The notes beneath the pieces are model-generated. The model searched no databases. It was not told the DNA's origin and saw only the letters and a program-made list of their open reading frames with translations. From Amoebidium appalachense (taxonomy: Eukaryota > Protista > Ichthyosporea): 64,000 bases of DNA. A program made the translations under genes and the position numbers. Below, piece after piece: positions 5,960 through 39,182 of this stretch. Within the stretch, counting starts at the first letter, position 1. The number at the start of each line of letters is the position of its first letter. The stretch covers positions 5,018,472 to 5,082,471 of the forward strand of contig CAVNZM010000003.1 in NCBI GenBank assembly GCA_963693365.1, written 5' to 3'.

Positions 5960-8900
5960 ATGGCTACCCAAGGCAACATGCGGACCCCTCATGGGTCGGC
6001 GTGGCGCAGACTTTTAGTTTTTGCTGTTGGCGTTTTGTCCGTATCTCAGTATGTTAGTGCACAAACACAGTCGCAGCCAAAGGTTGCGGATGTGTGGAAG
6101 AGATATGTTGCTGCCAGAAAAGCCGGGAAAACATCAGAGGTAAGTAATAGAGGGAGAGAATGGAAGGGGTGCATGGTGCTTGTAGGGAGCAATGCGATAA
6201 AGGGGTGGGCGGGCGGGTTAGAGCGTAGGGTGCAGGGGGTGAGAGGCCATGACGTTATGCAATGATAAACCCTGGGGAGGGGGAGGGGGGGAAGGGTGGG
6301 TGGGGGGGGGGGGGGGGGGGGGGGTAGGGGGGAGGGGGGCTAATTAAGTGCGAAAAAAACAACTCATTTCCTTCACAATATGCTGGTTATGCTGGTTGTG
6401 TTGTTACAAGAACAGACACTGCATTATACCGGAAATAATGTTTCTTTCCACAACACACCACTGTGACATCACACCCAGCTGGCAAGCAAATGTTTCAGCT
6501 AGAAATAACACAGGGAAACACTCCACACGCTGATTGTTACACTTCTCCGTATACCATACACCTGTTGCTAGTGCGAGAACACACATCTTTAATACACAAA
6601 CACACACACACACACACACACACACACACACACACACACACACACACACACACACACACACACACACACACACACGTGGGCTGCGCGCGCACGCGTGCGC
6701 GCCGCCGCACACACATGCGACACACACAGACACTGGTATACGCACAAGCGCATACACGGACACACACTGTGACGCACACACACACACACACACACACACA
6801 CACACACGTGCGCACACACACACACACACACACACACACAGAGAGAGAGAGAGAGGACACACACACACACACACACACACACACACACACACACACACAC
6901 ACACACACACACACACACACACACACACACACACACAATGCACTTGCATCACCCACCTGCATCACCCACCCGCATCATCGACTTTCCCCCCAAAACCAGA
7001 ACGTACACTCAAAAAACCCCGAAATGTGCTCAAGAAAACACCTAGCCTCGCCCTAACTCCCTGGTTTTTCTTAACAGGATTTACCGGATTTCTCGTATGC
7101 CGGATACAAATTCCAGGCTGAGCCCATTCCTAATGTCGCGGGGCCAATTTTCGATGTGACCACGTATGGCTGTACACCGGACGGCAAACAATTCTGCGAC
7201 ACAGCTGTAAGTTTGGAAATCAGGGGGTTTTATTTTAGGCAAGAGGTTGTAAATTACGGGTTGGGTGAATGTTGTTGTACATGAACGGGGTGAAGGGTTC
7301 TGATCATCAAAAGGACTGTTTCAACTATGGTGCCGGAACTCTGAAGCCCTCCAATTTCAGATCCCAAAATCACCCCGATTCGAGGGGTCGTCGCTCCCCA
7401 TAGAAGTGAGATACTTCGGAAATGGACACGTCAAAATGTCCGTCTTGATGTCCATTTAAAATGCACCCGGACACTTGCCTGGTGCCACCACAGGAAGATT
7501 TTGAAATTAGTGTTTGAAAATTTAGATTTTTACTAATTGACCCTAAATTGGCGCTTTTTTGGAAAAGAATGAAGGAGAGGTGCTAAAACAAAAATAAGGT
7601 GTTCTACGTGCTCAACGCAGTCGACTTTTCTGTAAAACTTTTTTCAGAAATCCAAATAACGCAAAAATAACTGAAATACTTGTGAAAACATAAAGAACCC
7701 CCCGGGGGTCAAGTTCCAGACCAGGATATATCCATAGACTATCTATATCTATTTATATAAATGGTATATCATACATATCTCTAGGCTGGTTTGATGACGT
7801 CCTCGGCTGAGGTCGGGGGGTCAGATTGGCGCTTTTTGGGTTCTCTGCGCCAATCGACAGATCTCGATGAGGCCGTTCGAGCTATCCAAGAATTTTTGAA
7901 ATCGGCCGACGAGAAGTGTTTTTTTTCAATTTTCCTTTTTTAGAGTGCTACAGACTACCGGCGCCATGCTATTTAGAGGGTGTGTTGAGTTGCGGGTGTG
8001 AGGTTGTGTGTGGGTGCGGGTTCGGATAGAGGTGGATGTGTGGATGGTGTGTGTGTGTGTGTGTGTGTGTGTGTGTGTGTGTGTGTGTGTGTGTGCGTGT
8101 GTGTGCGTGTGTCTGTGTGTGTCTGTGTGTGCGTGTGTGCGTGCGTGTGTGTGTGTGTGTGTGTGTGTGTGTGTGTGTGTGTGTGTGTGTGTGTGTGTGT
8201 GTGTGTGTGTGTGCGTGAGGTTGTGTGTGGGTGCGGGTGTGGATAGAGGTGGATGTGTGGAGTGTGTGTGTGTGTGTGTGTGTGTGTGTGTGTGTGTGTG
8301 TGTGTGTGTGCGTGTGTGTGCGTGTGTCTGTGTGTGTCTGTGTGTGCGTGTGTGCGTGCGTGTGTGTGTGTGCGTGTGTGTGTGTGTGTGTGTGTGTGTG
8401 TGTGTGTGTGTGTGTGTGTGTGTGTGTGGGGGGGGGGGGGGGGGGGGGGGCAATATGTTGGGCCATTTTGCGTCTCAACATCAGGTGGATGAGAGTGGAG
8501 AGGTTCAATATGGATAGGTTGTAAGCGTAGCACCGGGGGGGGGGGGGGGGGGGGGGGAGGGGCAAGGGGGGGAGGAGCAGGAATGGATGAGGAGGGGATG
8601 AAACGGAGGACGTGGTGGTGGTGGTGGTTGGGGCGGGGGGAAGGGGGGGGGAGGGGGAGGGAGGGGGAGGTTTGAAGTTCAGCAAGACCCAACTACATGA
8701 AAAACCCCCTCAAAATCCTAATTTTGTTCCTTTGGGGACAGGTGCGTGCTGCGATCAAGGCGGCTAGCAACAACAAGGGGGGTGTTGTGTATTTTCCGGC
8801 GGGAAAATACATGCTGGCAGACACGAACAATGACAGAGACACGGAGAATGCGTGGTTCTTGATTAAGACGAGCAATATTATCCTGCGTGGTGCCGGGTAT

Positions 8901-38900: not shown

Positions 38901-39182
38901 CAACGTTTGTGTTCCCTCCCTCCTTCTTATGTTTGACATACTTTGTTCTGACCATCTCCCCCCACATCTCCCTTAGGTGGGTGTTACTCTTTGTGTGTGT
39001 ATAACATAATTTTCCGTTGTGAATTTACACTTCATACCGTGTTGGAAGTTCAATTCTAACCCTCCCCCTCCCCCCCCCCCCCCCCCAGGTTTGGTAGCTC
39101 AAGTACCCATGTTCACCTGTCGTCAGGGAGTCTTGCAGCAAGCAGCACCGACCAACTGACCCCCATAGCTACACACCTCTGA
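5960..39182 (+). CDS. Giant (~2,895 aa) multidomain type I membrane protein: signal peptide, DUF4955/pectate-lyase-like beta-helix, TSP1 repeats, ricin-B lectin, trefoil, CBM-like, SEA-like, EGF-like, TM helix, short cytosolic tail (50 exons)
   Basis: Phase-consistent GT-AG exon chain read by eye: 5960-6139, 7078-7206, 8742-8896, 9426-9495, 10006-10281, 10791-10872, 11486-11544, 12086-12211, 12951-13246, 13540-13705, 14190-14350, 14719-14821, 15160-15434, 16180-16288, 17048-17188, 17651-17762, 18097-18267, 18641-18805, 19252-19422, 19784-19936, 20258-20440, 20850-21023, 21330-21506, 21808-21984, 22309-22485, 22864-23004, 23466-23762, 24137-24302, 25083-25243, 25783-26003, 26449-26642, 27019-27115, 27663-27781, 28485-28640, 29128-29230, 29626-29763, 30084-30198, 30735-30893, 31396-31581, 31933-32095, 32478-32613, 33030-33186, 33541-33689, 34122-34294, 34648-34908, 35525-35929, 36340-36642, 37389-37568, 38053-38477, 39089-39182. 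One extra G is needed in the G7 run at 31986-31992. The N-terminus has a hydrophobic signal ([20 protein letters not shown]), and the TM segment is [26 protein letters not shown]. Confidence 0.85.
7327..7967. mobile_element. Probable old non-autonomous DNA transposon (MITE) in intron 2
   Basis: Imperfect 25-bp terminal inverted repeats (atggtgccggaactctgaagccctc and gagtgctacagactaccggcgccat, 20/25 match) bound ~640 bp of complex non-coding sequence. No clear TSD. Confidence 0.45.
12437..12885. repeat. Intronic tandem repeat, ~154-bp unit x3
   Basis: catgaaacacccacacaaatgcaatc...aaatcacaaacatacataaacac occurs three times, nearly identical. Confidence 0.9.
16041..16172. repeat. 10-bp tandem repeat (C[C/T]CCCACTTA)n directly before an acceptor
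   Basis: About 13 copies, seen directly. Confidence 0.9.
16803..16955 (+). repeat. Dispersed repeat family member, related to 46062-46222 and more weakly to inverted ~455-570
   Basis: Shared blocks gctgggg, aagtgtgt, ggtgtgttag.ttagctaat.gca, agcaccctagctaga and gtggaaga.ggtagttcc. Confidence 0.7.
18097..23595 (+). other. Array of 11 thrombospondin type 1 (TSP1) repeats, about one per phase 1-1 exon
   Basis: WxxWxx[20 protein letters not shown]...E...C....C pattern in exons 17-27. Confidence 0.9.
20850..22485 (+). repeat. Recent tandem duplication of a TSP1 exon plus intron (~480-bp unit; four near-identical exons)
   Basis: Exons 22-25 are almost identical at the DNA level. Introns 21024-21329 and 21507-21807 are also nearly identical. 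Confidence 0.95.
23605..23740 (+). other. Trefoil (P-type) domain; further copies at ~17120-17690, ~29700-30125 and 32090-32600
   Basis: [26 protein letters not shown].....GPWCY and [29 protein letters not shown].....WPACF show the trefoil six-Cys pattern with CC. Confidence 0.85.
24137..25950 (+). other. Galactose-binding-like / CBM4_9-like carbohydrate-binding domain, copy 1 (copy 2 at 33030-34294)
   Basis: Copy 1 reads VQNPGFE...W....VRTGQYAV...Q.V...W..VS......VVDDV. Copy 2 reads NLVSNPSFE...GW...TRTGFSAL...VRQSI...W.RLS....AFFDDIVV. Confidence 0.65.
36643..37042. repeat. (GGGT)n followed by ~310 bp of pure (GT)n, starting at the splice donor
   Basis: Seen directly; the longest pure microsatellite in the window. 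Confidence 0.95.

What the first reader, a model, noticed from the sequence alone, without database searches (positions are those of the whole stretch)
5960..39182. Giant surface protein carrying a bacterial-type beta-helix glycan enzyme on a TSP1/lectin stalk
Seen in sequence: one phase-consistent reading frame joins a signal peptide and a ~500-aa domain with motifs from LPDFSYAGY to SLFEAQL..RL. That domain is followed by ~20 TSP1 repeats, 3 ricin-B, 4 trefoil and 2 CBM-like domains, then SEA-like, EGF-like and TM segments. Established knowledge: the N-terminal motifs are those I know from bacterial DUF4955/pectate-lyase-fold proteins, whereas TSP1, trefoil and SEA are eukaryotic adhesion and mucin modules. 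Inference: a horizontally acquired polysaccharide lyase or hydrolase was grafted onto an adhesion-receptor scaffold. The result would be a membrane-tethered bind-and-digest (or glycan-sensing) machine held far from the cell, perhaps acting on host mucus, algal walls or bacterial capsules. I do not know this architecture from any described protein.
Basis: partly seen in the sequence, partly recalled or inferred. Interest (0 to 1): 0.85.

Follow-up and report, generated by a model that had tools for sequence, protein, structure and literature searches.

The report
Bacterial glycan lyase on adhesion stalk
A transcribed 50-exon gene, likely from a single-celled relative of animals, joins a bacterial-type enzyme domain related to chondroitin/hyaluronan lyases to a long adhesion-protein stalk, and is predicted to cut acidic sugar chains at the cell surface; shorter relatives exist in related protists.

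Summary
The gene is real. A 50-exon GT-AG chain (5960-39182) gives 2,895 aa. Spliced RNA contigs join the enzyme exons to the stalk exons. The N-terminal domain is DUF4955 and is homologous to the catalytic part of BT3328, the founding PL29 chondroitin/hyaluronan endo-lyase. It keeps 75 of 86 conserved columns, and a paralogue folds as a beta-helix. This is likely an assembly error but is untested, and the membrane anchor depends on it. (2) The domain is not a private transfer. It groups with Amoebidium and Creolimax proteins (100/98), and homologues occur in other ichthyosporeans, Corallochytrium and Plasmodiophora. (3) An Amoebidium protein already pairs this lyase with TSP1 repeats and a ricin-like end. 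TSP1 repeats are solid (16); the ricin, trefoil, SEA and EGF calls are only partly supported. It lies outside the BT3328-like clade, so the substrate is inferred. None of ten paper searches showed a eukaryotic PL29. Verdict: new variant of a known enzyme kind.

The parts
5960..6139 (+). Exon 1: start codon, likely signal peptide (aa 1-34), first helix of the lyase domain
   Evidence: Sequence; in-frame stop upstream; aligns with homologue N-termini. Signal peptide by eye.
7078..14350 (+). Exons 2-11: PL29/BT3328-related DUF4955 beta-helix domain (aa ~41-530). Exons 7078-7206, 8742-8896, 9426-9495, 10006-10281, 10791-10872, 11486-11544, 12086-12211, 12951-13246, 13540-13705, 14190-14350
   Evidence: Pfam DUF4955 62.5 and 25.8 bits, cut-off 25; 4 of 10 exons scanned hit NF058554 in collinear order; 75 of 86 conserved columns kept
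14190..14350 (+). Exon 11: fusion point; the lyase C-terminal motif and the first Cys/Trp stalk unit share one exon and frame
   Evidence: Sequence; spliced to exons 10 and 12 in RNA contigs
14719..17762 (+). Exons 12-16, stalk block A: degenerate TSP1-like unit, ricin-like region, trefoil-like region
   Evidence: 33% identity over 294 aa to block B with matching intron phases; no Pfam hit for these domains on single exons
18097..23762 (+). Exons 17-27: 11 TSP1 repeats, then a trefoil (P-type) domain in exon 27
   Evidence: Pfam TSP_1 above cut-off in 10 of 11 exons; Trefoil 29.5 bits
20850..22485 (+). Exons 22-25: recent tandem duplication of one TSP1 exon with its intron
   Evidence: 4 copies, 87-94% to the reference, spacing 478-501 nt
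24137..26003 (+). Exons 28-30: CBM-like domain 1 (CBM4/9-like by homology)
   Evidence: 14.9 bits to a profile from Amoebidium and Corallochytrium modules; the Amoebidium module matches CBM_4_9 clusters at 0.96
26449..30198 (+). Exons 31-37, stalk block B: duplicate of block A
   Evidence: ricin profile 7.3 bits versus shuffle maximum 0.6
30735..32613 (+). Exons 38-41: three TSP1 repeats and a trefoil domain
   Evidence: Pfam; exon 40 unit 19.7 bits when read through
31986..31992 (+). Frame break in a run of G inside exon 40; read through with X
   Evidence: as assembled, stop at codon 2157; read through, open to 39182. Not covered by the RNA laid.
33030..34294 (+). Exons 42-44: CBM-like domain 2
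   Evidence: 39 bits; 26% over 171 aa to the Amoebidium P0015 module
34648..36642 (+). Exons 45-47: two TSP1, a short Cys unit and a ricin-B-like domain; the module shared with the Amoebidium protein
   Evidence: Pfam; 34% over 334 aa to P0150 residues 741-1051
37389..38477 (+). Exons 48-49: SEA-like region (lead only), EGF-like Cys unit, predicted TM segment (about 38300-38380), basic start of the tail
39089..39182 (+). Exon 50: end of a ~60-aa Ser-rich tail without a catalytic domain; stop codon

Best explanation
This is a transcribed gene, likely ichthyosporean, whose product is predicted to be a single-pass surface protein that holds a likely active PL29-type endo-lyase of probably ancient bacterial origin at the tip of a long TSP1/lectin stalk, where it would cut external uronic-acid glycans such as host chondroitin or hyaluronan. 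SHOWN: the exon chain, transcription and splicing across the enzyme-stalk junction, homology to the BT3328 catalytic region, conservation of the family's His/Asp/Trp/Asn columns, grouping with ichthyosporean paralogues, and stalk growth by internal duplication. INFERRED: secretion by the N-terminal peptide; anchoring by the C-terminal helix (needs the exon-40 break to be an assembly error); TSP1, ricin, trefoil and CBM modules act as spacer and glycan grip, likely reaching past the cell wall; the beta-helix cleaves by beta-elimination, releasing unsaturated oligosaccharides near the cell for osmotrophic uptake or loosening host matrix. The substrate is not shown.
For: RNA joints and contig-length arithmetic. 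DUF4955 and NF058554 hits. 75 of 86 columns conserved in 95 homologues, including H309, H310, H366, H389, D414, H416, D426, W453, N454. Paralogue P0010 models with 434 of 642 residues at pLDDT 90 or more as a beta-helix, best Z 26.9 to phage and alginate lyases/epimerases. BT3328 is a surface endo-lyase of CS, DS and HA (PMC9067506, passages). Of 80 bacterial loci, 32 have GH88 or another lyase family within 10 kb, 20 a sulfatase, 20 a GH29 fucosidase. Two bacterial homologues are fused to chondroitinase B. Tree support 100/98 with Amoebidium P0020 and Creolimax P0025. Ichthyosporeans are osmotrophs with bacterial genes in their secretome (PMC4739763, passages), and current knowledge of them rests mainly on animal-associated species (PMC11286789, passages).
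Against: Identity to any homologue is at most 37%. The domain lies outside the 100/100 clade that holds the BT3328-like proteins, and paralogues score 180-204 bits against a cut-off of 1100, so the GAG substrate is a guess. 48 of 80 bacterial loci showed no GH88 or other lyase with my 16 query proteins, and there is no background control for these counts. PL29 catalytic residues are not known to me, so conservation is not proof of activity. The frame break is untested and RNA was laid only on 12951-15434. The TM is weakly hydrophobic. The tree has no root and names no donor. The host lineage rests on the lyase tree and one light-chain hit among 4 candidates.
Confidence: 0.6

Rival explanations
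1. The enzyme is an active lyase, but on non-GAG uronic polysaccharides (algal or bacterial exopolysaccharide, alginate-like or fucosylated chains), serving nutrition or biofilm penetration.
For: Outside the BT3328-like clade. Bacterial neighbours include alginate-lyase families (PL5-like in 13 of 80, PL7-like in 3 of 80) and fucosidases (20 of 80). Closest solved folds are capsule depolymerases and alginate epimerase/lyases. A homologue occurs in the plant parasite Plasmodiophora.
Against: The only characterised members that I found act on HA/CS/DS. GH88, sulfatase and chondroitinase B neighbours also fit GAGs.
Confidence: 0.2
2. The protein remodels the organism's own wall or matrix glycans during coenocyte growth or cell release, or acts as an adhesion/sensing receptor in which the lyase fold mainly binds.
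For: Receptor-like layout with a cytoplasmic tail. Multiple paralogues, also in Corallochytrium. GAG cleavage changes colony size in a choanoflagellate (bioRxiv 10.1101/211789, section 10). The beta-helix adhesin PfbA is among the fold hits.
Against: Polar columns are fully conserved, as expected of an enzyme. The tail has no signalling domain. I have no evidence that this organism makes a GAG-like polymer.
Confidence: 0.13
3. The exon-40 break is real, so the product is a secreted 2,156-aa lyase without anchor, or a decaying allele.
For: The break is in the assembled sequence and I saw no alternative splice site that bypasses it. The Amoebidium relative P0150 ends before any TM segment.
Against: The break lies in a homopolymer and splits a TSP1 unit that scores 19.7 bits when read through. 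Ten downstream exons (about 760 aa) stay open with intact splice sites and domains.
Confidence: 0.07

Closest known systems
BT3328 (BtCDH), founding PL29 endo-lyase of Bacteroides thetaiotaomicron; NCBIfam NF058554
   Same: Homologous catalytic region (profile positions ~305-830), DUF4955 end, shared His/Asp/Trp columns; both surface-displayed.
   Different: Eukaryotic, 10 introns in the domain. Held by a C-terminal stalk and predicted TM helix instead of the N-terminal region seen in BT3328-like P0120 (DUF4988). Separate clade. Activity untested.
SoPL29 of Segatella oris (PL29 + CBM105)
   Same: Modular PL29 with an attached binding module; endo-acting on HA and CS (bioRxiv 10.64898/2026.10.07.757250, passages).
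   Different: One binding module versus about 30 stalk modules; sequence not compared here.
Amoebidium parasiticum EukProt P016721 (P0150, 1,053 aa) and other ichthyosporean/Corallochytrium DUF4955 proteins
   Same: Same clade (100/98); lyase followed by TSP1-TSP1 and a ricin-like end, 34% over 334 aa to the window's last module. P0015 and P0017 carry similar CBM-like modules. P0010 has a predicted C-terminal membrane helix.
   Different: P0150 has PAN and TSP1 before the lyase, only 3 TSP1 and no TM as deposited. None is described in a paper that I found.
Ichthyosporean bacterial-origin secretome genes such as CotH (PMC4739763)
   Same: Bacterial gene acquired, duplicated and domain-shuffled in ichthyosporeans; 71 of 163 Creolimax transfers are shared with other ichthyosporeans (passages).
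   Different: That paper has 0 occurrences of 'lyase' in the main text and none of DUF4955 or CFRG5170 in 3 supplement files.
Choanoflagellate GAG lyases (PL8) and hydrolases (GH56) (bioRxiv 10.1101/211789)
   Same: GAG-cleaving enzymes in unicellular relatives of animals.
   Different: Other families (Lyase_8, Glyco_hydro_56), not PL29.
ADAMTS proteases and apicomplexan TRAP/MIC2 adhesins (recalled, not tested)
   Same: Enzyme or adhesive head followed by TSP1 repeats; TRAP has a TM and short tail.
   Different: Heads are a metalloprotease or vWA domain, not a beta-helix lyase; resemblance of layout only.

Membership tests
PL29 / DUF4955 lyase homologues | Homology over the whole catalytic region | tested here: met
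   Spliced domain aligns end to end with homologues at up to 37%; 4 of 10 exons scanned hit NF058554 in order; paralogues cover profile ~305-830
PL29 / DUF4955 lyase homologues | DUF4955 above Pfam gathering score | tested here: met
   62.5 and 25.8 bits on exons 9 and 10, cut-off 25
PL29 / DUF4955 lyase homologues | Family-conserved polar residues retained | tested here: met
   75 of 86 columns; all conserved His columns kept. Which are catalytic is unknown to me.
PL29 / DUF4955 lyase homologues | Right-handed beta-helix fold | tested here: met
   On the paralogue P0010 (36% identical), not the window's own protein: Z 26.9, rmsd 2.4-3.2, 275-343 aligned
PL29 / DUF4955 lyase homologues | Endolytic beta-elimination of HA/CS/DS | not testable with these tools
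   Needs an enzyme assay
BT3328 equivalog (NF058554) | Score at or above 1100 bits | tested here: not met
   Three holozoan paralogues score 180-204 bits; the window's spliced protein could not be scanned whole
BT3328 equivalog (NF058554) | Groups with BT3328-like proteins | tested here: not met
   P0120 and P0068 lie in a separate 12-row clade at 100/100
TSP1-repeat proteins | Pfam TSP_1 above cut-off | tested here: met
   14 exons
SEA-domain proteins | SEA profile match | tested here: inconclusive
   No Pfam hit on either exon; Atlas 0.81 to a cluster with 34% SEA; domain is split over two exons
Adhesion GPCRs / receptor kinases | Seven TM helices or an intracellular catalytic domain | tested here: not met
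   One TM-like stretch and a ~60-aa tail
Recent species-specific bacterial transfer | Nests among bacteria without eukaryotic sisters | tested here: not met
   Sisters are Amoebidium and Creolimax proteins in all trees

The most novel reading that the evidence does not exclude
Ichthyosporeans domesticated a bacterial PL29 lyase into receptor-like surface proteins, and this giant form is a stalked enzyme-receptor that edits chondroitin-like matrix, the organism's own or its host's, and couples that to adhesion or cell release through its tail: an independent, pre-animal solution to matrix remodelling that parallels ADAMTS-type enzyme-plus-TSP1 proteins.
Probability: 0.15. Interest if true: 0.85.

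Novelty: new variant of a known kind. Interest (0 to 1): 0.6.

Why it matters
PL29 has been characterised in gut and oral bacteria in the papers I read. This gene and its relatives show the family is old, multi-copy and intron-rich in unicellular relatives of animals, and has been rebuilt onto eukaryotic adhesion modules. It gives a concrete, expressible candidate for how poorly understood animal-associated ichthyosporeans feed on or enter host matrix. It adds a third enzyme family to the question of glycosaminoglycan turnover before animals. It also samples an uncharacterised branch of PL29 whose substrate may be new.

Tried and rejected
Two candidate exons (about 24498-24561 and 25516-25556) were rejected: the first brings a stop, and without both the phases match and the two CBM copies align. 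No genome is held for the window, so paralogues and GAG-synthesis genes in this organism could not be sought. A word-indexed search with exon 9 for longer proteins found 0 of 26 candidates (weak). Exon 9 against PDB sequences: 1 chance hit. Profile A2 against PDB: 26 hits, nearly all on the N-terminal cap of beta-helices, none a PL29 structure. Run X3 laid nothing. The locus search with the broad alignment A1 had no usable pattern. The mixture-model tree did not finish, so trees are LG+G4 or FastTree. Monophyly of all 11 holozoan rows is neither rejected nor shown (p-AU 0.28); long Corallochytrium branches meet. No donor could be named. Three look-ups in earlier scan findings returned nothing. 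Ndeh et al. 2018 (PMC6240882) is not held. Paper searches: DUF4955, 0 papers; PL29+polysaccharide lyase+chondroitin, 32, 20 listed; PL29+CBM105, 1; Ichthyosporea+polysaccharide lyase, 1, unrelated by listing; Amoebidium+HGT+carbohydrate-active, 0; thrombospondin+Ichthyosporea, 7; PL29+eukaryot+fungi, 7, none on a eukaryotic PL29 by listing; Creolimax+secretome+LGT, 2; ichthyosporean+glycosaminoglycan, 5; three of four of lyase/thrombospondin type/HGT/holozoa, 0.
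Full report
Gene model. The window is eukaryotic DNA with microsatellite-rich introns. I called exons by hand, checked splice sites by script and obtained 50 exons from 5960 to 39182, all GT-AG, mean intron 501 nt. 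Two further candidates were dropped (see Tried and rejected). The chain is open except at one place: a run of G at 31986-31992 in exon 40. As assembled, translation stops at codon 2157. Read through with X, it gives 2,895 aa ending at 39182. The break splits a TSP1 unit and is followed by ten open exons, so an assembly error is likely, but I could not test it.

Transcription. Three runs were listed, none on record as RNA. Laid on 12951-15434, contigs of X1 and X2 cover exons 9-13, have no depth in the first three introns and show three GT..AG joints at the modelled places. The fourth junction (13704 to 14189) is seen as adjacent record coordinates. One low-depth X1 contig covers part of intron 12. 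X3 laid nothing. X2 record 4 (3,643 nt) bridges all five exons. It extends 1,405 nt upstream of exon 9, against 1,077 nt of modelled coding sequence, and 1,237 nt downstream of exon 13. Exons 14-21 total 1,205 nt, and the remaining 32 nt end where exon 22 first shares a 31-mer with its duplicates. The lengths therefore support the chain into the TSP1 array without my having laid it. This is one sample and one study.

The N-terminal domain. Exons 9 and 10 pass Pfam's cut-off for DUF4955; exon 3 weakly matches the pectate-lyase-like cap. Four of ten exons scanned hit NCBIfam NF058554, 'BT3328 family hyaluronic acid endo-lyase', in collinear order. Seven of seven homologues scanned match it too, over positions ~305-830 or more, at 127-849 bits against a cut-off of 1100. 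BT3328 founds PL29 and cleaves CS, DS and HA by endolytic beta-elimination at the cell surface (PMC9067506, PMC7793863, PMC12877422: passages; the primary paper is not held). The spliced domain keeps 75 of 86 columns conserved in at least 75% of 95 homologues, including every conserved His. The Amoebidium paralogue P0010 models confidently as a beta-helix; its best matches are phage and capsule lyases and alginate epimerase/lyases (Z 26.9). The fold is shown on the paralogue, not on the window's own protein.

Origin. Exon 9 found 126 representatives at E up to 0.001, best 49%. I looked up 30: ten from the top 14 ranks and twenty chosen mostly for looking eukaryotic. Twelve are eukaryotic: Amoebidium 4, Sphaeroforma 1, Ichthyophonus 1, Creolimax 1, 'Clim' 4 (read as Corallochytrium from the prefix, recalled) and Plasmodiophora 1. 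The other 96 were not looked up and are treated as unlabelled. A profile search gave 434 proteins; 3 of the 120 listed are from EukProt, and the named others are bacterial. For trees I kept 95 of 128 proteins that covered at least 420 residues; the 33 dropped include the Sphaeroforma protein. The window's domain joins Amoebidium P0020 and Creolimax P0025 at 100/98 in a 40-row IQ-TREE run and at 99 in FastTree runs of 96 and 151 rows. Six ichthyosporean-group rows, the window's included, join at 84/95. One clade of all 11 holozoan rows is not rejected and not shown (p-AU 0.28). The BT3328-like rows sit in a separate 100/100 clade. A bacterial origin is inferred from the mainly bacterial range and patchy eukaryotic presence. 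The tree is unrooted and gives no donor. The transfer likely predates the split of these ichthyosporean genera. A neighbouring EF-hand gene has its only hit in an 'Ihof' protein at 73%, which fits an ichthyosporean host. Such transfers are known in the group: 71 of 163 in Creolimax are shared with other ichthyosporeans (PMC4739763, passages).

The stalk. Fourteen exons pass Pfam TSP_1; a window-built profile finds 16 units above shuffles; five degenerate units are by eye. Two trefoils pass Pfam and two do not beat shuffles. One ricin domain has a sub-threshold Pfam hit, one beats shuffles and one rests on duplication. Two CBM-like domains match modules of Amoebidium P0015 and Corallochytrium P0017, and the P0015 module resembles CBM_4_9. 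SEA and EGF are leads only. The stalk grew by duplication: aa 547-829 matches aa 1702-1981 at 33% with matching intron phases, a TSP1-trefoil-CBM block is repeated at 26%, and exons 22-25 are recent tandem copies. Amoebidium P0150 has PAN and TSP1 before the lyase and TSP1-TSP1 plus a ricin-like end after it, 34% identical over 334 aa to the window's last module. The lyase+TSP1 pairing is thus older than this gene; the 2,300-aa stalk with anchor was seen only here. The word-indexed searches stopped at 2,000 and 1,623 residues, so other giant forms could be missed.

Substrate. Among 80 bacterial loci (the best of 456), tblastn with 16 neighbour proteins found GH88 in 22, sulfatase in 20, GH29 in 20, PL6-like in 10, PL5-like in 13 and SusD in 25; 32 have GH88 or another lyase. 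GH88 acts on unsaturated lyase products, so this supports lyase action on uronic-acid glycans outside the BT3328 clade. It does not pick GAG over other polymers, the loci are related to each other, and no background rate was computed.

Mechanism and rivals. Most likely the protein is secreted, anchored by one helix, and presents an active endo-lyase beyond the wall, gripping glycans with the stalk modules and releasing oligosaccharides for uptake or loosening host matrix (0.6). That TSP1, ricin and trefoil modules bind glycans is recalled knowledge. Rivals: a non-GAG substrate (0.2), self-remodelling or sensing (0.13), and a truncated secreted form (0.07).

Novelty. Ten searches of the open library showed no paper on DUF4955 or on a eukaryotic PL29 (mostly listings). 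I also read passages of bioRxiv 10.64898/2026.10.07.757250, PMC6792448, PMC12716839 and PMC11286789, and passages and section 10 of bioRxiv 10.1101/211789. Three supplement files of PMC4739763 had no hit. Subscription papers, preprint supplements and the CAZy PL29 list were not seen and may already list these proteins. I rate it a new variant of a known kind, interest 0.6.

Noticed in passing
window 44229-45160 (+): Three-exon EF-hand gene resembling a myosin essential light chain (name recalled); only hit an 'Ihof' EukProt protein at 73%.
   Followed up: partly
window about 54000-57460 (-): Exons of a Ser/Thr kinase (Pfam Pkinase) with motifs I recall from greatwall/MAST-like kinases.
   Followed up: partly
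window about 49100-49270, 55040-55300, 58900-59140: The same short sequence recurs three times in the ORF list, suggesting an interspersed repeat.
   Followed up: no
window 26449-26642 (exon 31, aa 1672-1675) and 39089-39182: A tribasic RRR site between CBM 1 and block B could allow shedding of the enzyme half; the C-terminus ends Thr-His-Leu, like a class I PDZ ligand. Both motifs are recalled and untested.
   Followed up: no
P0027/P0154: Plasmodiophora brassicae has a stand-alone DUF4955 protein on a long branch of unsettled position, possibly a separate transfer.
   Followed up: partly
P0017, P0029, P0067, P0087: Four divergent 'Clim' paralogues with different layouts: two C-terminal CBM-like modules, ricin before the lyase, or hydrophobic ends.
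   Followed up: partly
L012:2240-19085, L041:1475-19627: Bacteroidota loci pair the DUF4955 lyase with several GH29 fucosidases, other lyases, and GH88 (L012) or a sulfatase (L041); this would fit a fucosylated uronic glycan such as fucosylated chondroitin sulfate.
   Followed up: partly
L027-L036, L043, L049, L052, L053, L065: Most of these Latescibacterota loci carry the homologue near a sulfatase; some records derive from single-chromosome assemblies.
   Followed up: no
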